DNA of 64,000 nucleotides. Origin: Trichinella spiralis (Eukaryota). Where the stretch lies: assembly GCF_000181795.1 (NCBI RefSeq), contig NW_003526941.1:10417068-10481067 (forward strand), given 5' to 3'. A program made the translations under genes and the position numbers. This document shows positions 1 through 14,900 of this stretch, piece by piece. Each line of letters begins with the position of its first letter. Within the stretch, counting starts at the first letter, position 1. The notes below the pieces were generated by a model. That model was given only the letters and a program-made list of their open reading frames with translations. It searched no databases and had not been told where the DNA came from.

Positions 1-648
1 TCAGTATAAACTATTTTTTATTATCCATATAATTTTGATACGCAGTGATAGCATTTCCGTTTATTTTTAGTAATCTGCGATGCTTCATGTTAATAATATT
101 TCATTTTAGGTAATTTTAGGGAAAAAATTTGCATAACAATACCATATTACGTAGTAATATGAAGTGTGTAAATAGAAACGTAATAAATTTCATCGTCTCG
201 TTTCATAATGTTGCTCGTATTGTTTATTTTAGTGCGCTATTACTGATGGAAAATTAGGTTGTTCTTCATGAAGCAAAGTAAATAGTCATTTGCATGATTT
301 TCTTATTATATAATTGTCCAAGCACATCGATTTTATTATGTTATTCAGTTCACTCCAATGCTATGAATCTAGCACGTGGTCAACTATAATTCCGCTCTTC
401 AACACCATCCATGAATAACTGGTAAGTTGGATTTGATATTTTGGTGGTGGCATGCTATGCATGTTACTTGACTTATATGGTGAATGGTAATTGGCGGGTG
501 TCTTTCTCGTGTAATTATTGCTAAGTTTTAGATACATCAGATGCTGAAGACGAAGAAGTATCTATTTCTGTTTTTTATTTATAGATGACTGCATTAATAT
601 AGTTCACTTTTAGAATTTACATTATTTTATATTCACATCAATGAATAT
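1..648. repeat. Left arm of a long inverted repeat (truncated by the window edge)
   Basis: 1-47 (tcagtataaactattttttattatcc...) is the exact reverse complement of 6601-6647. Pairing continues to about 648 (caatgaatat) with 6001. I saw only isolated mismatches in 1-480 and more in 480-648. Confidence 0.97.
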
Positions 649-1140
649 GAAACAACCAAATTCTGAAAACTAACTGAATATGGTAACTATGCATCATGAT
701 GAATATGCCTTGCTTTTTACTTGAATTTTTCTGTTAAATTTAGGTTGAAGGTTGCAGTGCTATTAGCGCCACATTCCTTTCATTCTAACTGCAGCACTAA
801 TGTTAAATTATCATGTATGTGATATCATAGATTATGTGCCTTTGATTCAATTCTTTTTAGAATTGAAAATTACATTTGCCTTGCAATTTGAAAATTTTGA
901 AAATGCCCAGATGCAATCTATTATCAGTGAAGTCAGGTAAAAGCTGTTGAACAGTGGTTGTTGGAGTTGATGACCTAGCGTTCAAAAACCATATGACAAA
1001 AAACAGTAAGTGTTGAATTTGTTTAAATAGATAGCAAGACGTTCTGCGTATTAGATATAGGTGGAATTTGGTGACTTCTGTAATTACAGATTACGTCATC
1101 AGCTGAGTTTTTATGGTGTTTCTTTTGCTCTGGGCAACTT

Positions 1141-2190
1141 GGTAAGTCATGTTCACATCATTTCGTTCTAAATTTGCCATCACAAACATCCGTAAGTAAT
1201 GAATTTGCTCCTGACTGCATTTGGATCGTACAGTGTTTGGTGCAGTGACGTTTCCAAGTTGTTCTAGTGTGGTTTCACTTACCATAAAAGTAAGATCGAA
1301 TGGATTGTAATTGTAGCAGATTTCGCTGAGTCAGCCGAGCAGCGTTCGTACAAATCCTGACAAGGTATTGGTGGTGCTTGTTGCTGTCAGTGCGTTTCAA
1401 ATGTGATATGACAAAAATTAGTGAGTAGCTTTTGATTATAATAGCTGTGGATTACGTCATCCCATGAAGCTTGTACCGTTTGCAACCCGTGATCGCATGG
1501 AGGTAAAGGCGTTTCCTAGCCGTCCCAGTGTGCCTTTGCTTATCACAAATAGTATCGTTCATCAGTAAGTATTGAATTTGATTAATTAGCTGGAAAATGC
1601 GAGTATTGAGAGATTGAATTTGAATATCTATCTGAACATGAATACATGAATATCTATAATAACATATACATCATAAGCTGAACTGTTTTCAAGTTCCTTT
1701 CGCTCTGGTCACCGTGCTTAGTCATGTTCACATCAGTTCGTTCTAAATGTGGCATCACAAACATCCGTAAGTATTTAACTTGCTCCTGATTGCAGTTGGA
1801 TGCGTAAAGTGTGCACATTTTATCCATGACAGCATTACATTAACATCAAGCGAATTCGACGTTTCCTCTGATGGCCCTCTGAGTTGAAGTTGACGCGGTG
1901 ACGTTCATCATTGGTACTAGTGTGGTATCACTTATCATAAGAGTTAGAAAGAAATAAATGATTGTAATTCTAGCAGACAACGTTGAGACAGTCGAGTAGC
2001 GCTGGTGCCCGTGTAGATCTTTCGTCAGTGCGCTTCCAATGTGAGATGACAAAAATTAGTAAGTAGTTTTTGTTTATAATAGCTGTGGATTACGTCATCC
2101 CATGAATCTTGTACCGTTTGCAACCCGTGTTCACATGGACGTAAAGGCGCTTCCTAGCCGTCCCAGTGTGCCTTTGCTTATCACAAATTC
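1141..2190. repeat. Diverged tandem duplication, period about 580-640 bp
   Basis: 1145-1230 (agtcatgttcacatca...cacaaacatccgtaagta) recurs at 1720-1805. 1386-1550 (gtcagtgcg...gtggattacgtcatcccatgaa...gtgcctttgcttatcacaaat) recurs at 2024-2188. Confidence 0.9.
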
Positions 2191-2610
2191 ACAAAGTTAA
2201 ATGAATAGAACAGGTATGTCGATGTACATCCCAGCATTTTGTTCCTGATAGCAATTTGTGAATATTTTAGTCGCAGCCGATGGCACTCAAATTGCGTTTC
2301 ATTCGGTTCTGATGTTTTTCTTTGTCACGCAAGGTAAGGAAGAATTGCATTATTTTTTGTAGGATAATTGTCTTTAATGTTTTAGTGCGTAACTGTGAAG
2401 ACGAGAGCCGCATCTTGAATGATCTCCATCGAATAACGTATTATGCTGCTGTTATTCGTCTTCAATTACTTTTTATAATATGGCTGTAATTTGGTATATA
2501 ACTATATTCAATTATGAATTTTAGAATCATGGCATGTTTATATTAAATTCTTCATTTAGAGCAGTAGAGAGCGTAAAGTACTGGTACGTAGCATCAAGGA
2601 AAGTGGACAA

Positions 2611-2880
2611 AGTAATGCAGGTAAGTACAGTGGAAGCGGATATATTAATGTGATTGCGTACAGGTAATTGGATTGCAGGTAAGTACAATAACGTAGGGTG
2701 CAGGTGAGTAAAATGTGCAGGTAAGTATATAAAGAAGAATGATATCGTAGATTTAAGAGAGATAGCGGAGAGGTAAAGGTAAGTATGAGGTGAAACTCTA
2801 CGCTGAGTGGAGTACGGGAAAGCGTAGTTAAGTAGTAAGGTAAATGCAGAACATGTAAGTATCGAATTGCAGGAGTAAGA
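2611..2880 (+). repeat. Purine-rich array of 5'-splice-site-like motifs (CAGGTAAGTA and variants)
   Basis: caggtaagta at 2618, 2676, 2718; caggtaattg 2661; caggtgagta 2701; aaggtaagta 2776; aaggtaaatg 2837. Confidence 0.8.
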
Positions 2881-3440
2881 AGCCTGGGGATGAATTATGT
2901 AAATTTTCGAAAAAAAACACCTGAGGAAATGCCCTGGGCATAGCCTGAAAGCAAATAAAAATTTGCATATCCCCCTGAAGGCAAATATTGTGCATTAAAA
3001 TGCTTCAGGCGTAGCCTGCGGGAATATGCAAATTTTTATTTGCCCTGAGGCATAGCCTGAGGCGATGCCTGCGGCTAAATTTCAAAAAATTTCAAAATTT
3101 TCAAAAAATTGCCTGAGGCATAGCCCCAGGCGTAGCCTCAGGGCATATAAAATTTGCATATTACCCTGAGGCAATTAAAAATTTGCATAAAAACCCCCTT
3201 AGGTCAAATATTGTGCTATAATTTGCCTGGAGGATAGCCTAAGGGCATATGCAAATTTTTATTTGCCCTGGGGCATAGCCTGAGGGCAAAGCCTGGGGCT
3301 ATATTTTAAAAAATTCGAAATTTTCAAAATTTTGCCTGAGGCATAGCCTAAGGCGTAGCCTGAAGTCAAATAAAAATTTGCATATTGCCCATAGGCGATT
3401 AAAAATTTGCATATTTTATTAAATAAATCGCCTCAGGCTT
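2881..3440. repeat. Quasi-palindromic tandem repeat (~190-223 bp units) built from GCCN3-4GGC and ATTTGCAT motifs
   Basis: gcctgaggcatagcc at 3111 and 3334 (period 223); a shorter unit starts about 2920. A perfect 20-bp inverted repeat links 2951-2970 and 3024-3043. Octamers at 2961, 3026, 3152, 3181, 3249, 3376, 3405. Confidence 0.92.
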
Positions 3441-3479
3441 TTTAAAATTTGTAATTTCAATGTGCACATCTACATAATA

Positions 3480-3895
3480 TACCGTACCATTCACAACTTA
3501 CCTTCACAATTATACTTGCCTTCACTCTATGCACTACTTACCTTTCCACTTATACCTACCTTCACATTACTTACCACTTACCTTCCCCTATGCAGTACTC
3601 ACCTTCACAATTATACCTTCACCCTAAACACTACTTACCTTTGCACTTTTACTTACCTTCACCCTAAACTCTACTTACCTTTGCACTTATACTTACCTTC
3701 ACCAAAAACACTACTTACCTTCACACTTATACTTACCTTCACAATTATACTTGCCTTCACCCTATGCAATATTTACCTTCACACTACACACTAACTGCCT
3801 TTACCTATGCAGTACTCACCTTCACATTTATACTTACCTTCACACCTATTCTTACCTGACTTACCCTTAACTATTTATCTTCATACTTACCCATA
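3480..3895 (-). repeat. Pyrimidine-rich minisatellite (~18-22 nt unit, tacttaccttcac); reads gtgaaggtaagta on the minus strand
   Basis: tacttacctt at 3632, 3650, 3672, 3690, 3712, 3730, 3831 plus degenerate copies. It is the inverted counterpart of 2611-2880. Confidence 0.9.
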
Positions 3896-6000
3896 GTCTG
3901 CTTCCTTGTCTTTTTAGACTTAGACTTTTTAGACACTACGCTATTTACTTAGCCATGTTGCCTTTAACTGACTCTCTGAATCCATAACTAAAATGAATTC
4001 TTACATAAAAAAATGAAATCCTGAAAACACTGTAAACAATAATTATAAAAAATTATAAAAAGCAATTATGAAAAAATTATGAAAAGCAAAATTATAAAAA
4101 CCTGAAAAACTAAAACGACAAAATTTACACTTTTCAACTTTCATAGCTTATAAAAGTAAAATGTACATACGTCGCCAAACTGAGCGGCATCAACTGGTGG
4201 TAGTGCTTTGTGATGACGTATTTATCGACGTGATTACGAATCTTTGTGAAGACACTACATGTTCAATAACGGATAGCTACCAAAGAATACAGCAATTTCA
4301 TTCATCTATAACTAAACTTAATTTGATTCTGAAAATATTTGCAAAACAAGTGTGCTGAAAAGTAAAGCATGTTAAACAAAATTGATATGAAACAGCCATA
4401 TTATAAAAAATTAATTGAAGACAAATAACAGTGCATCGTCGTTCCTTAATTACTAAGTATACAAATTTGTAGAAAAACTACTTGCTAGTCATACAACATT
4501 TGTCCTTCAGGATGCAAGCATCTGAACAGCTACGCGCTGAAATTTTCAATTAAACATCCTAAGCATGTGATAAGCAACACCGCAGTGTAAATGAACACTA
4601 TCACTCATCAATAAACAAAATCTCTACTTACAAAATACTAAAACTTACCTACTCACATAATACTTTACAAAAATACTCACCAAACGCACTGAAGGCAACA
4701 CGCACTACCAGACTTGTATGATGTATCCGAAAACCAGTGCAAATCGACTATATTCACGATATATGCTACTATTACAATCATTATTTAATTATATCGTACT
4801 CCTATAATAAGTGAAGTCACACAGGTTTCTGGACCAATACTGGGTAACGTCATTGAGCCAACCTATACTAACGCAGGAGTATGAACGTATATCTGTTCGA
4901 TGTCGATGACGTAATCCATTCCTATAATGGGCAAAATGTGTACTTATTTTTGTGATGGCACATTTAGAACGCATTGTGATAAAGGTGACATACCATGTTG
5001 GCAAGAGCAACAGGAATTCCAAAAAGTTTCAATTATGTTGACGCACACTATTTAATTCGATAACAAGAAGCACACAGGATCAAATATAAGTGGAATTAGA
5101 AGACATTAATAATAGTAACAGATTACAGATAGTCAATTACTTACAGACTTTTGTACATCTTTTCAATCCATTGAAAGAAACCTGAACCACCATTAGAGAA
5201 AGACATTCAAGTTTATAGAAATAATTCCACTGCACTGACACAACCCATTGCTATAACAAAGTGCATAAAATTCATTCTTACTGTAACAATGAAGAAAACC
5301 AGAAAGCGGAACTGTTGAGACACATGATTGATCAATGTAGAAACATGAACACAGCAATAGTCAAACTAAAAAATAGATACTAAATAACACAGCAAAATGA
5401 AAAATTGGATAACAAAATGAATGAAATTCAAATATCATCGTGATGCACTGTTATTCGGCTTCAATCACTTTTTATAATACGGCTGTTTCTCATAAGCACT
5501 ATTTCAACCGCTATCATGAGTTCATATAAAGCACACGCAACCTAATATATAGAACAGAAATAAATATAGTTGCATTACCTCCTTGATGATATACCAATGA
5601 AGACAATTCAGAAAAAAAATTGAAATTATTTAATAAACAATTAGTGTCATACAAACAGAATATTTTTTACCTACACTCTTTCCAAATATTGCATTGCATT
5701 ATCTTGTACATCTAAAAAGCTATATTTCTAATGTAAAATTCAAATTTAAAATTAACTAAAATCAAAGGCAACGAATCTACAATATTACTTACATTGAACG
5801 TACGAATACAATAACAGACGTGCTGCTGATGGCGTTGCTAACTTACAATCCAAATATCTCGCAAATAATCATTTTGCGCACCTGCTTCTTAGCCATCATT
5901 TTTATTGAAATTTCACGGGAATAAACAAAATTGCAAATCAACTGCAGATGAAAATAATTATGATGCATAGTGGCATCATCTTCTCATGATAGGATTTTTT

Positions 6001-6647
6001 ATATTCATTGATATGAAAATAAAATAATGTAAATTCTAAAAGTGAATCATATTAATGCAGTCATCTCTAAATAAAAACAGAAATAGGTACTTCTTCGTCT
6101 TCAGCATCTGATGTATCTAAAACTTAGCAATAATAACACTAGAAAGACACCCGCCAGTTACCATTCACCATATAAGTAAAGTAACATGCATAGCATGCCA
6201 CCACCAAAATATCAAATCCAACTTACCAGTTATTCATGGATGGTGTTGAAGAGCGGAATTATAGTTGACCACGTGCTAGATTCATAGCATTGGAGTGAAC
6301 TGAATAACATAATAAAATCGATGCGCTTGGACAATTATATAATAAGAAAATCATGCAAATGACTATTTACTTTGCTTCATGAAGAACAACCTAATTTTCC
6401 ATCAGTAATAGCGCACTAAAATAAACAATACGAGCAACATTATGAAACGAGACGATGAAATTTATTACGTTTCTATTTACACACTTCATATTACTACGTA
6501 ATATGGTATTGTTATGCAAATTTTTTCCCTAAAATTACCTAAAATGAAATATTATTAACATGAAGCATCGCAGATTACTAAAAATAAACGGAAATGCTAT
6601 CACTGCGTATCAAAATTATATGGATAATAAAAAATAGTTTATACTGA
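6001..6647. repeat. Right arm of the long inverted repeat (partner of 1-648; probably continues past 6647 with a partner outside the window)
   Basis: Direct reverse-complement match to 1-648, checked by eye. Confidence 0.97.
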
Positions 6648-9600
6648 AAATAGTTACGAAAATAAAATTCTTTTCCAGATTTATGGAAAATTGAACAGTT
6701 GTCATGAAATTTTATGATGATAACTGCGACAGAAATTTTATAATATACAATTTATCTCATCACAGATTTTAACAAGTACGCATCGTAGACATCATGATGG
6801 TAAGTGGCTGCACCAGTGGGTATGCTACTTGAAAGCTTATTTACTATTAAAATTTTGTTTAAACTGAACTTTTGCTTACACCTTATGATGATTTATAGTA
6901 AACCCGCAAACATGGTTGAGCTCTGCATCAGCGCGCCACATACAATGTGGGAAAAACTCTAATCGCAGAAATTAAGTAACTCAACGATTTGCAATAAATT
7001 CAAGAAACTTATGCGGGTGATAATTCTGTATTGGATTTTATGAAAAGAATAAAACAAAAGAATCACGAGTAGCCTGGATTTGGTTATATTGCTAGTCGAT
7101 AACAATTATGAGAAATTAGATTTATATGAGATGAAAACAGCTAAGTGCTGTTCATTCAACTCGAAACAGGGGGTGGGCAGCATTTTCAGTTGAATGCGAT
7201 CTCTGTTCAGCTTAGTATTATTACGAGCTCAATGATGGGGATCATTAGAAAGGAAAGGAGGGCGGGACAGCATAGCAGGAAGGATTGAGGGAGAAGATGA
7301 AGGATGGAGGAGGTGGAAGTTGTCATATGCGTTCTTCCACTCAATCTTCGCGTATAATATTCAGGCGTTCCTTCATTTATCAATACTGGCAACATTGATG
7401 GGCATTGAGTTATTTTCTCAATGACAGAAAATAGGTGCATCTGTATAAGTCAGTGCTATTGGCGGTACAATGACATAATAGAAACTTTAAGGGGTCATTT
7501 GAAAAATGAAGGGAACGTTACTGCCATTCTAAAAGTATCAAAGGTGGTAGTATAAAGGTGTGTTCACTAGCTAACAGCAGCTTTCCTATGTCATGCTGAA
7601 ACAATGTTGTGCACGATTTGAGCAGTGACAAGCATTTAGGGGTGCAATAGTGCCACTGCAGTATCCTGGTGACAGACATTTCCTTTAAACATCTGGGCAA
7701 GTATGTTACCTTAGCAATAAACATTACAGTGGGCAGTAAAGATAATGCGGGAGGGGTTCAACTGCTATGTCAGAGTACTACTTTACAAATGGATTTGTAA
7801 GGACTATTGAAAATTATAGCAAAATATACCATTAGTACTATTATATAATGGCTTGGCCGTAATAAAGTCTCGAATATTATTTGAACATCATTACTGAAAA
7901 ACAACGCGCTAGTTTCCATTCAAAAAGACTAAAATCAAACAACTACGAAAAGCTTAAAAAGCGCGCATGTTTAGTGCAGTGTGCCAAGAGAAAGAAAGAA
8001 AACATTGTATGAAAAATAGCAAATATATGAAAATTCATACCTGTCAGGGATAACGTATAAAGCAAACGTAGAGTCAAACACTTTATAACTGATGTTCGTG
8101 GTTTCTTCATATTTTTAGTCTAACAATCACAACGTATTTGTTGAACTGAACCATGAAAATGACTGAATAACGCAACGCAGTAAGTAATTAGACCGCCCTT
8201 CAGCAGCGAACATTTATACTATAGTGCAGTTCTCTCAATAAACAGAAATTTATATAAGGAACATTGCTACCGCATTTGAATAGCACAAAGTGCACGTAGC
8301 GGAATGCCAACGGCAGTGCTTACCATCATATTAGCATAAAGTTATTCTGCTGACCTAGAAATGCATGTATGCCTTGAAAACGTATAATAACAATCTAATG
8401 AGTCAACACCAAAGATTATAATAATCAAAGCCACTATCTATCACAAATAATATTGTGGCGTAAATTAAAGAAGTATAAAATAGTGTCTTACGTAAATGGG
8501 GCTGCACTGGCACGATAATAATATGTCGCAATATTCAGCAAAATTCATTCATTAATTTAAAGGAACTGATTGTTTAGTGAACATTTCAATCAGACTTTGA
8601 TCAACCACTTTGAAAAGAAGAAAAATGAATGCCTAAAACAGAAGAATGGCAAAACATAACATTTACTTAAAACACAAGCATAATGAATTGATAATTTATA
8701 TAATGCACATACTGGGTTGAAGTACTAAAAATTGTGCACCACGGTTGTCACTTTAGTCAGTGTGGAACCGGCAAAATTGTTATCTTATATGCATGGACAA
8801 AGTACAGAAGCAAATTATTAAAAATTTATAGATCTTGCCCCCTCAAACTTTACAAGAGTTTGCACTCCCCCTTGTCTGAGGGAAGGGAGCTTCACGCTCC
8901 AGGATGGGGCCCATTTTTGGTCTCTCCATCCTCCACCTGTTTTAAATATTTCAAGTCCCACTCCCGGCATGATTCTATGCAACCTACCTACCTACCATCC
9001 GTTCATTCGCTCGTGTTAGCTACTGCAAAGGTGATTTTCGAAACACCATATTTTAATAATAAATAAACAATGCGTACAGAGTGTATTTCATCATACTTAA
9101 TTGTACAGAAATTTGATGTTCATTAAATCACCAATCATCTCATATGGAGAATTCATAGAGAATATATTGGGAAATTATACTGAATATCGATTCTCAATTG
9201 CAGTGGTAAGTGATTAAGACTTAGAAATGAAAAAATTGCCACTTACTGCTAAATGCGTTGTCGTCTCATTGTTGATGTTCATGCTGTTTGAATGTTGATT
9301 GAAAAATTACTTTTCAGAAATTATTCCAAAAAATAATAATGAATAAAAAGCAAATCTAGTGTTTGGCGTTCAATGTTGGTCTTCAGTCAATTTTCCAATC
9401 AAAACGCAGTGCATCCAGCCACGGACGGGGTCAAACTAAAATTATTTCCAATATGTCAATAAAGCAAATCAACTCGCATGCAAATTTTCATTTTATTCAT
9501 TGCTGCTGACAAATGTGACTAGTGCATATTTTTCCTTGGGCTTTATATACTTTGGAAGGCACCTTGTTTAGGAGAAAATTTTATTGTAGCCCTGCCAAAC

Positions 9601-11971: not shown

Positions 11972-14900
11972 TCAGCGGACGACGCTTTGCAACGACGCCG
12001 GAGCCAATGATACGTGCATCTGAGCGGTCGAGCTAGCACCAGCGTAACAATCGTTTATCGAATTTTCGTGTAGCTTTTGCAACGATAAATGGCAAGACGA
12101 AGATGAAGACGACGTATCACCATGGTAAGGCGGCGGTGGAGGCATCAAAAATTGACACTGGAGCAAACTGGATACTGAACCACAGTCGGATACCGAAGCG
12201 CTTGCTACTTCGACTGTTTCTGTTGCTTTGGTCGTCTGTGGTGGCGGCGTTGGCGGCGGCTTTTGCAACTGCAGATGACGATGCTTCTTCTGCTGTTGCA
12301 CAAATGATTCGTGCCAGCTAAGTGGACGCCCAGTGATCGGCGGTTCGAAGGTTCCAAATTGCGAAACTGCTGCCTGCTGATCAGCGGTCATCGCTTCTTG
12401 GCAACAGTACTCGCCCGTGATGTCGTCGTCTAAATTTCCGGCCATCGACAAACGCCTCGACACAGGCACTGACCACTGTCCCGCGGCACTGCTGCCGGTG
12501 CTGTCCAGTTCGCTAATGCTGCAACAGTTCGCCGACGACGAATGCAACGACTGATCACTGCACAGAGCTCGAATTAAAGGCAAATCCGCCGCCTGGGCCT
12601 GGATCATGCTCTTCACACGATCCAAGTCGATCGCGGGCATTTCGCAGTGCTCTTCTTGACACGCATCACAATAATGCGTCGACGTTGACGAACATCCACT
12701 GTCCTGGTAACGGTTAGCTATTGTAGAAGGGAGCAATTCAGATGAGGATATTGACACCGCCTGGCCCAGTCCCAAATTGACAGCATGTTTAGCACGCAGT
12801 CGGCTGAAACTGATCTCACGACCTGAACCCAACGCTCCACCGTGCCGATAAGAAGAAGTGGAATCCTGCAAACTTTGCGTCCTACTGACAATAGCTGAAC
12901 CGTGTAAAAAATGCGACGAACAACCACCACCACTACTAGCTGATGAATTTAATTCTTTACATTCCGCATAACTGCAGGGTATTGTCGATTTATACTGTTG
13001 CTGTTGTTGCTGTTGTTGTTGTTGATGATGATGGTTAACGTAAGCTGCTGGTGTATATGCAGCTAAATCACATTCGGCTGTCGTTGTTGTTGTCGGTCCG
13101 GACAAATAAGCGGATAATGATCTTTCTCGATAAAAAGAGTCGTTTGAAAATATATCATACTTCTTGTAAGGTCGTCGACAATTTTCATCTGACATCGCGC
13201 AACTGCCGATCGATGACGACAGACGAGCGTCCAAACCAAGCCCGGGCTCGCTTTGAGCCTGCTGCAACGGTTGCCGTAGCTGATCATTCCGCTGTCGCAA
13301 ATATTCATTCTGCTCATTATTATTATTATTATTATTATCATTCCATTTGCACTGCACCGATATGCTGCTGGTTGCCTGATTTAAAACGAAAGGATCGACA
13401 CAGGTGATCGTTGTCCAACGTTTGCCGTGCTGACGTTCAGCTTTTTGCCTGATCGCCTGTTCATAGTTGGGCAGTGAGCTGTTGCTGTTGTCCACATGAA
13501 GCGGCGTTGAACCGTAAGCTGACGACAATGCGTGAGAAGGCAAATTGGACAACGATACGGACTGCAAACATTCGCTCGCGGTACTGGTAACCATTGGTCC
13601 AGCATTTACCGGTGCCATACGCCTCTGATATCGGCTGTCCATCATCGGATAATTAACAGATGCCGTAGTACACTGCTGTTGTTGTTGTTGCTGCTGCTGC
13701 TGCTGCTGAGGCTGTTGTTGTTGTTGTTGTTTTGGCTGAGCACAGCAGGACGCATCTTGACAACTTCCAGCTGACGCTGAAGCTAATTTGTTGCTACCCA
13801 TTCCACCGGTTGGTATCCAATTCATGTAGGCGCGTTGCGCCAAGTTGCAGTTTCGGTCCGCGGTGGGTTGACAATCGGCGTTGTTGAACAACGTCCGTCT
13901 CCGGATGTCTGAAATGTCGACCAGTGAATTTTTCACATTCAAAGCTAGCTGTTCACGGGTGCGCAGCTGACACCGGCGCAATTTTTCCTCCAGAGTTGCC
14001 AACGCGCTGGGCAAAATTGGATGCTGAATTTGGGCAGAATTCTTCACGGCACAATGCACCGGTTCGACATTATTGCTATTGTTGCTGCTGGCCGTTTTCA
14101 ATTTTGTATTATTACGGTCGGTGGTATCCGCCGCAACGCTTTCCGCGCAGGAACAAACCGCCTGCGATGTTGAACAAAATTCTCCCACTTCACCAGAACC
14201 GTCCGTAGACGAAGTTTCTTCTTCATCCGCATAAGTTTGCCGACTGACGAACGACACCTCGCTTCGGGCCGAATCACTGTGCACCAGTGGCACTTTCCCA
14301 TTGGCAGAGAAGTCAAATTCCAACAAGTCCGGGTCTGAGAGAGAGCGAGCATTCACAGGGATGTTCAAACGATCCTGTCGGTGACAAAGCTCACCATTGT
14401 CGTTTTCACTGTCATCAGGCGCCTGCTGCTTGTCCGACACAATGCCGGATGTAGTGTTGCTGCTGGCGTCGCTCACCAAACTGACACGTTGACCGGTAGC
14501 ATTGGACAAGTTGCTGAAATTTACAAAAAAGTTACACTCCAACACTGTAATATTGTCCAATAACTGTTCAATAATTAATTTATCATGAAAAATATCAATT
14601 TGAAAACAATCATTCCACTGTTTTCACAACTACTTCTCCACCACTATTATTCATTTCACACAGTACTACTACTACTACTTTGGTTGGTTTAGAAAATCTT
14701 TCCATAACAGATGAATATGTATAATTTTAAATTTTTGAAAAAAAAAAGAAAAACTACAAAAATAAACCAACTTCACATTCAACTATAACCAACTGAAAAT
14801 TCTCATTCCATCAAATCAGACTTTTCATCCACAACTAATTTATTTGTACGTGAACATCAAATAATATTATGGAAGTAAATTATACAGTTTTTGATACTTT

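What the first reader, a model, noticed from the sequence alone, without database searches (positions are those of the whole stretch)
1..6647. Multi-kb foldback/inverted duplication organised symmetrically around a palindromic motif core
Seen: 1-648 is the reverse complement of 6001-6647, putting the axis at about 3324, inside the GCCN3GGC/octamer block. Diverged inverted homology continues inward (828-876 vs 5730-5780; 1164-1186 vs 4948-4971; 2446-2487 vs 4394-4432). The splice-donor arrays next to the core are also mirror images. No protein-coding ORF, transposase or RT is visible. The architecture is arm > donor array > core < donor array < arm. Inference: an undescribed foldback-type or non-autonomous repeat family, two convergent copies of a spliced non-coding unit that could form a long dsRNA hairpin, or a chromosome-structural element.
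Basis: partly seen in the sequence, partly recalled or inferred. Interest (0 to 1): 0.85.

Follow-up and report, generated by a model that had tools for sequence, protein, structure and literature searches.

The report
Mirror-image non-coding repeat pair in Trichinella
A Trichinella (parasitic roundworm) genome holds a 6.6-kb mirror-image pair of a non-coding unit whose copies point at a palindromic centre flanked by clusters of splice-donor motifs; it likely belongs to a dispersed repeat family, is likely transcribed and spliced inwards, and its function is untested.

Summary
Bases 1-652 are the reverse complement of 5997-6647 at 98% identity. Weaker inverted homology (69-76%) continues inward. 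AGGTAAGTA occurs 4 times on the + strand left of the centre, 8 times on the - strand right of it, and nowhere else in the window. The centre (2900-3450) is strongly self-complementary.

The window is from a Trichinella nematode. No coding frame or Pfam domain was found in the region.

Arm identity is 100% over the outermost 323 bases and decays inward. The repeat starts at window base 1, so the arms probably continue upstream, unseen.

Contigs of three runs (RNA only by the tool's guess) show four short GT..AG joints on the + strand of the left half. GTAAGT polarity flips at the centre. This fits two convergent spliced units.

A frame from the arm matches "hypothetical proteins" on 278-512-base contigs in five named Trichinella taxa, several per genome. 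This fits a multi-copy family.

Best reading: an inverted pair of an unclassified, spliced, non-coding repeat unit, with homogenised outer arms. Transposition as one unit, hairpin RNA and any role for the donor clusters remain untested. I could not rule out misassembly. Moderate interest.

The parts
1..652 (+). Left outer arm, cut off by the window start. It is the reverse complement of 5997-6647. It carries an intron at 180-232 and a GTAAGT at 422.
   Evidence: 100% identity over 1-323 and one mismatch in 1-469, then 96%, 94% and 90% per 50-column block. Joint 179>233 with GT..AG ends in 3 of 3 RNA-type runs.
653..2560 (+). Left interior. It is a diverged homologue of the right interior, with a tandem duplication of about 600 bp and introns at 1006-1089, 1192-1267 and 2334-2385.
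   Evidence: The GT..AG joints come. The GTAAGT sites at 1006 and 1192 come.
2600..2880 (+). Left cluster of consensus 5' splice-site motifs (TGCAGGTAAGTA type). The spacing is irregular and the cluster is not a clear tandem repeat.
   Evidence: AGGTAAGTA at 2619, 2677, 2719 and 2777; 9 GGTRA sites; best autocorrelation only 0.39.
2900..3450 (.). Palindromic centre. It holds a 223-bp direct repeat (2982-3189 / 3205-3413, 83%) built of small palindromes. It contains GCCTNAGGC 5 times, several octamer-like ATTTGCAT/ATGCAAAT motifs, and AATAAA on both strands.
   Evidence: The fold gives -214 kcal/mol against -146 +/- 7.6 for shuffles, z = -9.0.
3490..3895 (-). Right array of 5' splice-site motifs (GTGAAGGTAAGTA type), a minisatellite with a 40-nt period (18 + 22).
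   Evidence: AGGTAAGTA 8 times on the - strand; 22 GGTRA sites; lag 40 = 0.55, with no 4-nt period.
3896..5996 (-). Right interior, with patches 69-76% like the left interior. GTAAGT occurs only on the - strand (4626, 4643, 5139, 5787, 5841).
5997..6647 (-). Right outer arm. Homology stops at 6647 only because the window begins at base 1.
4389..5489 (.). Nested piece bounded by 49-nt inverted repeats (4389-4437 / 5442-5489). A related single copy lies at 2449-2487 in the left half.
   Evidence: I9, I13, I18, D11. One search shows loose ends of DNA-type contigs at 2449 and 2485.

Best explanation
Window 1-6647 holds two mirror-image copies of a non-coding unit that point at a palindromic centre; the unit likely belongs to a dispersed repeat family of Trichinella and is likely transcribed and spliced towards the centre.

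Shown by the sequence or by calls:
- the inverted repeat;
- its identity gradient, from 100% at the outside to about 60% beyond base 651;
- the strand switch of GTAAGT at the centre;
- the lack of any coding frame;
- the strongly self-complementary centre.

Inferred:
1. The pair arose by inverted duplication of one repeat unit at a palindromic minisatellite.
2. The outer arms are kept alike by gene conversion between them, and they run on upstream of the window.
3. Each copy is transcribed inward, loses several short introns, and ends in the centre. The first sense-strand AATAAA signals after the donor clusters lie there.
4. The clusters of consensus 5' splice sites have no evident partner acceptor just before those signals. 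They would bind U1 snRNP and would either hold the RNA in the nucleus or damp the poly(A) sites, so that some transcripts read into the opposite arm.

The locus is most likely selfish or neutral repeat DNA rather than a host gene.
For: Inverted repeat. Identity gradient.

Strand polarity:
- GTAAGT 12 on + and 1 on - left of the centre; 0 on + and 19 on - right of it.
- About 0.2 per kb per strand in the other 57 kb (10 on +, 13 on -).

Splicing: of the 15 joints listed (84 more were not shown), 4 have GT..AG ends on the + strand of the left half. These are 179>233, 1005>1090, 1191>1268 and 2331>2384. Two are in 3 of 3 RNA-type runs and two are in 2 of 3. None is in the DNA-type run X2. Two start exactly at GTAAGT sites (1006 and 1192).

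Sense-strand AATAAA is nearly absent from each half (left: 182, inside an intron, and 1953; right: 6461 and 5901). It appears in the centre at 2954 and at 3415/3258/3035, and it is frequent on the antisense strands.

No coding capacity:
- no Pfam family for 10 of 10 ORFs of 70 aa or more;
- the longest sense-strand frames are 58 and 79 aa;
- even a permissive search over splice paths gives at most 437 and 401 coding bases;
- the array period of 40 is not a multiple of 3.

Family: the frame 361-561(-) matches 6 database proteins, 85-90% identical in the alignment. They carry 11 NCBI accessions from T. murrelli, T. sp. T6, T. patagoniensis, T. spiralis and T. britovi, all on contigs of 278-512 bases. 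At position 1282, 8-14 RNA-type contigs and 16 DNA-type contigs overlap.
Against: - The RNA nature of runs X6, X9 and X14 is the tool's guess. The joints have short sides (20-30 letters) at a 90% likeness threshold.
- The same many-contigs-per-position pattern covers the flank 6648-9000, which shows no repeat inside the window. Read-laying therefore does not single out this element as multi-copy.
- No second copy lies in the other 57 kb of the window.
- The outer ends were never seen, so 'pair of two units' and 'one unit with long terminal repeats' cannot be told apart.
- Perfect arm identity in a multi-copy repeat could be inflated by assembly polishing.
- CpG is not depleted in the arms or interiors (observed/expected 0.86-1.05), so there is no sign of long-term methylation of a silenced repeat.
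- No transcript end, read-through or small RNA was observed.
- AGGTAAGTA-bearing tandem repeats are not rare elsewhere, so the motif could be incidental.
Confidence: 0.5

Rival explanations
1. It is a foldback-type, non-autonomous DNA transposon that moves as one unit. On this view the arms are its long terminal inverted repeats, the arrays are their inner sub-repeats, and the centre is the loop.
For: - The inverted arms are long, at least 652 bp.
- Tandem or clustered repeats sit at the inner side of each half.
- There is no ORF.
- The arm sequence lies on several tiny contigs per genome in five Trichinella taxa.
- The two arms of this copy are identical, while other contigs laid on the arms differ by about 7% (table 8, records 13 and 14).
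Against: - The outer ends and any target-site duplication could not be seen, because the left arm is cut by the window start.
- The interiors are only 69-76% alike in patches. That is unlike terminal repeats and more like two old copies.
- The identity gradient rising outward suggests the repeat continues beyond the window rather than ending there.
- No transposase relative was found in the window.
- The halves look like multi-intron transcription units, which is not a known trait of foldback elements (recalled).
Confidence: 0.2
2. It is a hairpin-RNA locus. A transcript started in one arm would read through the centre into the other arm and fold into a stem of at least 650 bp. Dicer would cut that stem into siRNAs that silence the whole repeat family.
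For: - The arms are complementary at 98%.
- Strong 5' splice sites lie directly upstream of the central AATAAA signals and could damp them. This mechanism is recalled from U1 telescripting and papillomavirus late-RNA work.
- The antisense strand of the far arm is rich in AATAAA, so a read-through RNA would end there.
- T. spiralis silences transposons with Dicer-type 23-25-nt siRNAs and lacks piRNAs (PMC4323106, passages read).
Against: - No contig or joint was seen that links the two halves across the centre among the rows shown.
- No small-RNA data could be examined.
- PMC4323106 reports that T. spiralis siRNAs are spread evenly and that dense clusters are virtually absent (passage).
Confidence: 0.12
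3. It is an assembly or polishing artefact. Either the inverted arm at the start of the sequence is misjoined, or its perfect identity results from consensus polishing of a multi-copy repeat.
For: - The repeat touches base 1 of the window, and identity is exactly 100% over the outermost 323 bases.
- Even the best-holding run has only 0.43 of the sampled 31-letter words.
- No listed contig bridges an arm/interior boundary with 31 or more letters on both sides (table 8).
Against: - A foldback chimera would join the arms directly. Here 5.3 kb of asymmetric sequence with old, colinear 69-76% homology lies between them.
- Identity decays gradually rather than stepwise.
- The mirror polarity of splice motifs and AATAAA holds over the whole 6.6 kb.
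Confidence: 0.08
4. It is a pair of convergent protein-coding genes with very small exons.
For: The donor density is gene-like, and there are short GT..AG joints.
Against: - The longest sense frames are 58 and 79 aa.
- The best permissive spliced path is 145 aa, and it uses introns that do not match the observed joints.
- No Pfam family was found.
Confidence: 0.02

Closest known systems
Foldback-type transposons (Drosophila FB; C. elegans Tc4 with about 770-bp terminal repeats). Recalled, not compared by sequence.
   Same: Both have long inverted arms, repeats at the inner side of each arm, a central loop, no coding capacity in most copies, and multiple copies.
   Different: - The ends and any target-site duplication were not seen here.
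- The halves are diverged (69-76%) except for the outer 652 bp.
- Each half looks like a multi-intron transcription unit.
- The inner repeats are consensus 5' splice sites.
Hairpin-RNA loci and Mu killer-type inverted duplications of a transposon. The hpRNA concept is as cited in PMC3212509 (passages). Mu killer is recalled.
   Same: An inverted duplication of part of a repeated element could give a long double-stranded RNA.
   Different: No transcript spanning both arms and no small RNAs were shown. The loop is 5.3 kb, and the evidence points to convergent rather than single read-through transcription.
Large palindromes kept alike by arm-to-arm gene conversion (primate sex chromosomes). Recalled.
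   Same: The outer arms are nearly identical, identity falls towards a distinct spacer, and there are old traces of homology inside the spacer.
   Different: The arm length here is unknown (at least 652 bp seen). The sequence appears to be multi-copy and non-coding, and no testis-type gene content was seen.
5' splice-site motifs that cause nuclear retention and decay of unspliced RNA through U1-70K/ZFC3H1 (PMC9074902; only the search listing and the start of its abstract were seen).
   Same: Intact 5' splice-site motifs lie in the last part of a transcript without an evident partner acceptor.
   Different: Here there are 9 to 22 motifs in clusters on both sides of a palindrome. The setting is a nematode repeat, and nothing was tested.

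Membership tests
Foldback-type / long-TIR DNA transposon | Long terminal inverted repeats that form the ends of the element | tested here: inconclusive
   The inverted arms are at least 652 bp at 98%. The left arm is cut by the window start, so the termini were not seen.
Foldback-type / long-TIR DNA transposon | Target-site duplication flanking the two ends | not testable with these tools
   No sequence upstream of base 1 is available, and no genome is held for this window.
Foldback-type / long-TIR DNA transposon | Many genomic copies that share the same termini | tested here: inconclusive
   An arm frame recurs on several 278-512-base contigs per genome in five Trichinella taxa. The structure of those copies is unknown.
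Foldback-type / long-TIR DNA transposon | A transposase in autonomous relatives | tested here: not met
   No Pfam family was found in any ORF of 1-6647, and there is no transposase in the 64-kb window. Autonomous copies elsewhere could not be sought.
Hairpin-RNA (hpRNA) / Mu killer-type locus | Inverted-repeat arms able to pair | tested here: met
   652 bp at 98% complementarity.
Hairpin-RNA (hpRNA) / Mu killer-type locus | One transcript that contains both arms | tested here: inconclusive
   No joint or contig across the centre appears among the rows shown. The contigs are only 150-270 bases long, and 84 joints were not listed.
Hairpin-RNA (hpRNA) / Mu killer-type locus | Dicer-sized small RNAs from the arms | not testable with these tools
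   No small-RNA run was available.
Gene-conversion palindrome | Arms nearly identical, with a distinct spacer between them | tested here: met
   One mismatch in 1-469, then decay to about 60% beyond 651. The spacer is 5.3 kb.
Gene-conversion palindrome | Multi-kilobase arms | not testable with these tools
   The arm runs off the window at base 1.
Foldback chimera (assembly artefact) | Arms abut at the axis, with uniform identity and no diverged spacer | tested here: not met
   5.3 kb lie between the arms, with colinear homology of 69-76% and a gradual identity gradient.
Known RNA families (Rfam 15) | A match at the gathering score | tested here: not met
   There were 0 matches in the window. 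Only sub-threshold miRNA-hairpin-like hits fall in the centre: 35.8 bits against a cut-off of 100.

The most novel reading that the evidence does not exclude
The unit is a self-silencing device of a repeat family. Clusters of perfect U1-binding sites placed just before the poly(A) signals of a palindromic centre force polymerase to read through into the opposite arm. Each inverted pair then makes a hairpin RNA of at least 650 bp, which feeds the Dicer/RdRP siRNA pathway that replaced piRNAs in Trichinella. This would be a natural use of U1 'telescripting' to make double-stranded RNA.
Probability: 0.1. Interest if true: 0.8.

Novelty: new variant of a known kind. Interest (0 to 1): 0.45.

Why it matters
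About 7.7% of Trichinella genomes is 'unclassified dispersed elements' (PMC4740406, passage), and this locus gives one such element an anatomy. It is a multi-intron, non-coding unit arranged as a mirror pair around a palindromic centre, with clusters of consensus splice donors on both sides.

If the donor clusters act through U1 snRNP, the family would be a natural test case for how unpaired 5' splice sites control RNA fate. The setting is an animal that silences repeats with Dicer-made siRNAs and DNA methylation instead of piRNAs (PMC4323106).

If they do not, the locus is an ordinary inverted repeat of junk DNA that also breaks short-read assemblies.

Tried and rejected
- **Whole genome:** none is held for this window. 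Copy number, outer ends and target-site duplication could therefore not be examined.
- **Earlier findings:** there was nothing on this genome, this sequence or this motif. A word search for 'Trichinella' returned only operon notes from other genomes.
- **Sequencing runs:** no RNA holder is listed.
They say nothing about conservation.
- **Depth:** depth differences between bins were not used to rank expression or copy number.
- **Rfam:** nothing at gathering score. Only sub-threshold miRNA-like hairpins fall in the centre, and I rejected them as chance hits on palindromes. No tRNA was found.
- **Spliced-leader RNA genes:** I considered this idea because Trichinella has 15 leader types (PMC7668243, passages). 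I dropped it because the donor motifs are 6-52 nt apart, too close for genes of about 100 nt.
- **Array frame 3423-3794(+):** no relative among 17 candidates.
- **Coding potential:** rejected.
- **CpG depletion as a mark of methylation:** none in arms or interiors.
- **Metagenome scan** for three AGGTAAGTA 6-14 nt apart:
  - By my lag-4 test, 74 of the 114 are (TAGG/TAAG)-type tetranucleotide repeats, and 40 are other repeats, many with periods of 15-23.
  - One locus (L070) has opposed arrays 1.25 kb apart, but they are of the tetranucleotide type.
It does not show that they are enriched or related.
- **Literature:** searches for Trichinella with 'inverted repeat'/'transposable', 'repetitive element'/'copies' and 'palindrom' found no description of this element. 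The supplements of PMC4740406 and PMC4323106, which hold the repeat annotations, were not read.
- **Motif names:** AP-2 for GCCNNNGGC, the POU octamer for ATGCAAAT and the CRE-like TGACGTAAT are recalled names only.


Full report
**1. The observation**

The inverted repeat is real.
- The repeat finder reports arms 1-575/6073-6647 (99%) and 572-657/5992-6077 (91%).
- blastn aligns 1-652 with 6647-5997 at 98.0%.
- The axis, (1+6647)/2 = 3324, falls in the GCCNNNGGC/octamer block.

Inward, blastn finds colinear inverted matches:
- 813-876/5730-5794 (75%)
- 1110-1189/4946-5025 (76%)
- 1267-1397/4682-4822 (69%)
- 1388-1461/4905-4976 (73%)
- 2449-2487/4392-4431 (92.5%)

These matches are not exactly symmetric. 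The left half carries a tandem duplication of a unit of about 600 bp (1092-1226 ~ 1667-1801, 82%; 1386-1550 ~ 2024-2188, 93%).

The nonamer AGGTAAGTA occurs 4 times on the + strand at 2619-2777 and 8 times on the - strand at 3535-3831. It does not occur in the other 57 kb of the window. None of this is chance.

**2. The outer limit is the window, not the element**

An end-to-end alignment of the arms shows the following:
- 100% identity over bases 1-323;
- one mismatch in 1-469;
- then 96%, 96%, 94% and 90% per 50-column block;
- about 60% beyond 651.

Identity therefore rises outward, and the repeat touches base 1. The arms very probably continue upstream of what I can see. No whole genome is held, so I could not look.

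**3. The organism and the neighbourhood**

The window carries animal genes: ZSWIM8, MCM5, a FERM protein, aldehyde dehydrogenase, a papain-type and a trypsin-type protease, and ribosomal protein S23.

The MCM5 exon is 88-89% identical to clusters named for Trichinella sp. T9 and T. nativa. It is 78% identical to T. papuae and T. zimbabwensis, and 56% to Trichuris. The genome is therefore a Trichinella, probably of the encapsulated group. The composition (about 35% G+C) agrees with the 32.5-33.7% reported for the genus (PMC4740406, passage).

**4. Two convergent, intron-rich, non-coding units**

- *Donor polarity.* GTAAGT lies 12 times on + and once on - left of the centre, and 0 times on + and 19 times on - right of it. 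The rest of the window has 10 on + and 13 on - in 57 kb.
- *Poly(A) signals.* AATAAA shows the opposite bias. The sense strand of each half has only two (left: 182, inside an intron, and 1953; right: 6461 and 5901), while the antisense strands have many. The first sense-strand signals after the donor clusters lie in the centre (2954; 3415, 3258, 3035).
- *Joints.* I laid the contigs of four runs of 'organism A' on 1-9000. Four of the 15 listed joints (84 more were not shown) had GT..AG ends on the + strand of the left half:
  - 179>233 (skips 53), in 3 of 3 RNA-type runs;
  - 1005>1090 (skips 84), in 3 of 3;
  - 1191>1268 (skips 76), in 2 of 3;
  - 2331>2384 (skips 52), in 2 of 3.

  None of the four appeared in the DNA-type run. 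Two of them start at GTAAGT sites found independently (1006 and 1192).
- *Caveats.* The RNA label of these runs is the tool's guess. The joints have short sides (20-30 letters) at 90% likeness. Most other listed joints are non-canonical and look like length variants between copies.
- *No coding frame.*
  - 10 of 10 ORFs of 70 aa or more in the region have no Pfam family.
  - The longest sense-strand frames are 58 and 79 aa.
  - A permissive search over GT..AG paths reaches only 437 and 401 bases, using introns that mostly disagree with the observed ones.
  - The frames that stay open through the arrays lie on the antisense strand, and the array period (40 = 18 + 22) is not a multiple of three.
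- *Exon conservation.* Blocks conserved between the two left units and the right unit coincide with the exons defined by the joints, for example 1090-1191.

**5. Arrays and centre**

The right array is a minisatellite with 22 GGTRA sites, mostly GTGAAGGTAAGTA. Its autocorrelation peaks at lags 40, 18 and 22.

The left cluster has 9 sites, mostly TGCAGGTAAGTA, in otherwise unrelated sequence with no clear period (best lag 20, value 0.39). The motif is kept while its surroundings are not. This is the best hint that the motif itself matters. An old, decayed minisatellite is the alternative.

The centre (2900-3450) has these features:
- It consists of a 223-bp direct repeat built of small palindromes.
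- It folds far better than shuffles: -214 against -146 +/- 7.6 kcal/mol, z = -9.0, with 0 of 100 shuffles as good.
- It holds all five GCCTNAGGC of the window and a concentration of ATTTGCAT/ATGCAAAT.

Calling these AP-2 and octamer sites is recall, not a test.

**6. A repeat family?**

Evidence for a family:
- The frame 361-561(-) of the arm matches database 'hypothetical proteins' of 38-41 aa. They come from:
  - T. murrelli (locus tags T05_875, T05_11039, T05_10519);
  - T. sp. T6 (T06_9634, T06_11621, T06_328);
  - T. patagoniensis (T12_14249);
  - T. spiralis (T01_7623);
  - T. britovi (T03_116).
- Each lies on a contig of only 278-512 bases. Several tiny contigs per draft genome are what a multi-copy or palindromic sequence gives in short-read assemblies.
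- These copies join the sequence at window 376 directly to 267. They therefore lack 108 bases that both arms of this locus have (read).
- In one search, 8-14 RNA-type contigs and 16 DNA-type contigs overlap position 1282, at 90-99% likeness. All of them carry T where the window has C.

Evidence against over-reading this:
- The same many-contig pattern covers the flank 6648-9000, which has no repeat inside the window.
- The other 57 kb hold no second copy.

I take 'multi-copy family' as likely, not shown.

**7. What it most likely is**

I favour an inverted pair of one unclassified, spliced, non-coding repeat unit (confidence about 0.5).
- The old 69-76% homology of the interiors shows that the inverted arrangement, or the two copies, is old.
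- The near-identity of the outer arms and its gradient fit ongoing arm-to-arm gene conversion, as at the inner boundary of larger palindromes (recalled).
- The palindromic minisatellite at the axis is a plausible seed for a fold-back duplication (inference).
- Each copy would be transcribed inward and end in the centre.
- The donor clusters lie just upstream of those signals and have no evident partner acceptor. They would bind U1 snRNP.
- From work in other systems, such motifs cause nuclear retention and decay (PMC9074902, listing only) or damp nearby poly(A) sites (recalled).

Which of these happens here, if either, is untested.

**8. Rivals**

- *A foldback-type transposon moving as one piece* (0.2) cannot be excluded without the termini. 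The diverged interiors and the outward-rising identity speak against the arms being terminal repeats that end near the window start.
- *A hairpin-RNA source* (0.12) is attractive, because T. spiralis relies on Dicer-made 23-25-nt siRNAs against transposons (PMC4323106, passages). However, no RNA crossing the centre was seen, and that paper reports siRNAs spread evenly without dense clusters.
- *Misassembly or polishing artefact* (0.08). The 5.3-kb asymmetric spacer with colinear old homology, and the gradual identity decay, argue against a chimeric foldback. The perfect identity of the outer 323 bases could still be inflated by polishing, and no listed contig bridges an arm/interior boundary with 31 or more letters on both sides.
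- *Protein-coding genes* (0.02) are rejected for the reasons given in section 4.

**9. Comparison and novelty**

The locus shares its architecture with foldback elements, hairpin-RNA loci and gene-conversion palindromes. It meets the defining tests of none of them with the data at hand (see the membership table).

Three literature searches found no description of such an element in Trichinella. I did not read the supplementary repeat annotations of PMC4740406 and PMC4323106, and they may list it as an unclassified repeat.

A metagenome scan shows that tandem repeats carrying AGGTAAGTA exist in many unknown genomes. By my test, 74 of these are tetranucleotide-type repeats and 40 are other repeats, many with periods of 15-23. 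I could not run a control scan, so this only tempers the claim that the arrays are unique.

I rate the finding a new variant of a known kind, of moderate interest. The anatomy is unusual and testable, but no function is shown.

Noticed in passing
window 4389-5489 and 2449-2487: 49-nt inverted repeats (4389-4437 / 5442-5489, 88-95% alike) bound a 1.1-kb piece of the right half, and a related single copy lies at 2449-2487. DNA-type contigs have loose ends exactly at 2449 and 2485. The roughly 37-nt motif therefore probably occurs elsewhere in other contexts, like the end of a small MITE family.
   Followed up: partly
window 268-375 (and its mirror 6273-6380): The copies of the arm annotated in five other Trichinella genomes join 376 directly to 267, so they lack 108 bases that both arms here contain. 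The missing stretch has no canonical intron ends on either strand, so it is a copy-to-copy indel.
   Followed up: partly
window 6648-9000: The flank is covered by many RNA-type contigs. It has a CT..AC joint at 8218>8271 (a 52-nt intron on the - strand) in 3 of 3 RNA-type runs. It also has a 447-nt skip, 6720>7168 (TA..AC), in the same runs but not in the DNA-type run. A - strand transcript may run from here into the right arm. No Pfam family was found in its ORFs.
   Followed up: partly
window 11975-14623 (-): An 883-aa open frame with CAG/CAA (glutamine) runs, about 50% G+C, and no Pfam family. It is probably one large exon of an uncharacterised Trichinella protein.
   Followed up: no
window 1088-1100, 1449-1461, 2087-2099, 4905-4917: The 13-mer GGATTACGTCATC (a CRE-like TGACGTAAT core; the name is recalled) is kept in all three copies of the inner unit on the left and in the one on the right. 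TGACGTAAT/ATTACGTCA occurs only once in the other 57 kb.
   Followed up: no
whole window: AATAAA occurs 218 times on the + strand and 82 times on the - strand, and AT skew is positive over most of the window. Most recognisable genes (ZSWIM8, MCM5, FERM, trypsin) lie on the - strand.
   Followed up: no
L008, L016, L045, L048, L052, L059, L071, L074, L099 (metagenome loci): These are minisatellites with periods of 17-23 nt in which every unit carries AGGTAAGTA plus a complex spacer, from unknown organisms. L070 has opposed GGTAAGT-rich arrays 1.25 kb apart, but they are of the simple tetranucleotide type.
   Followed up: partly
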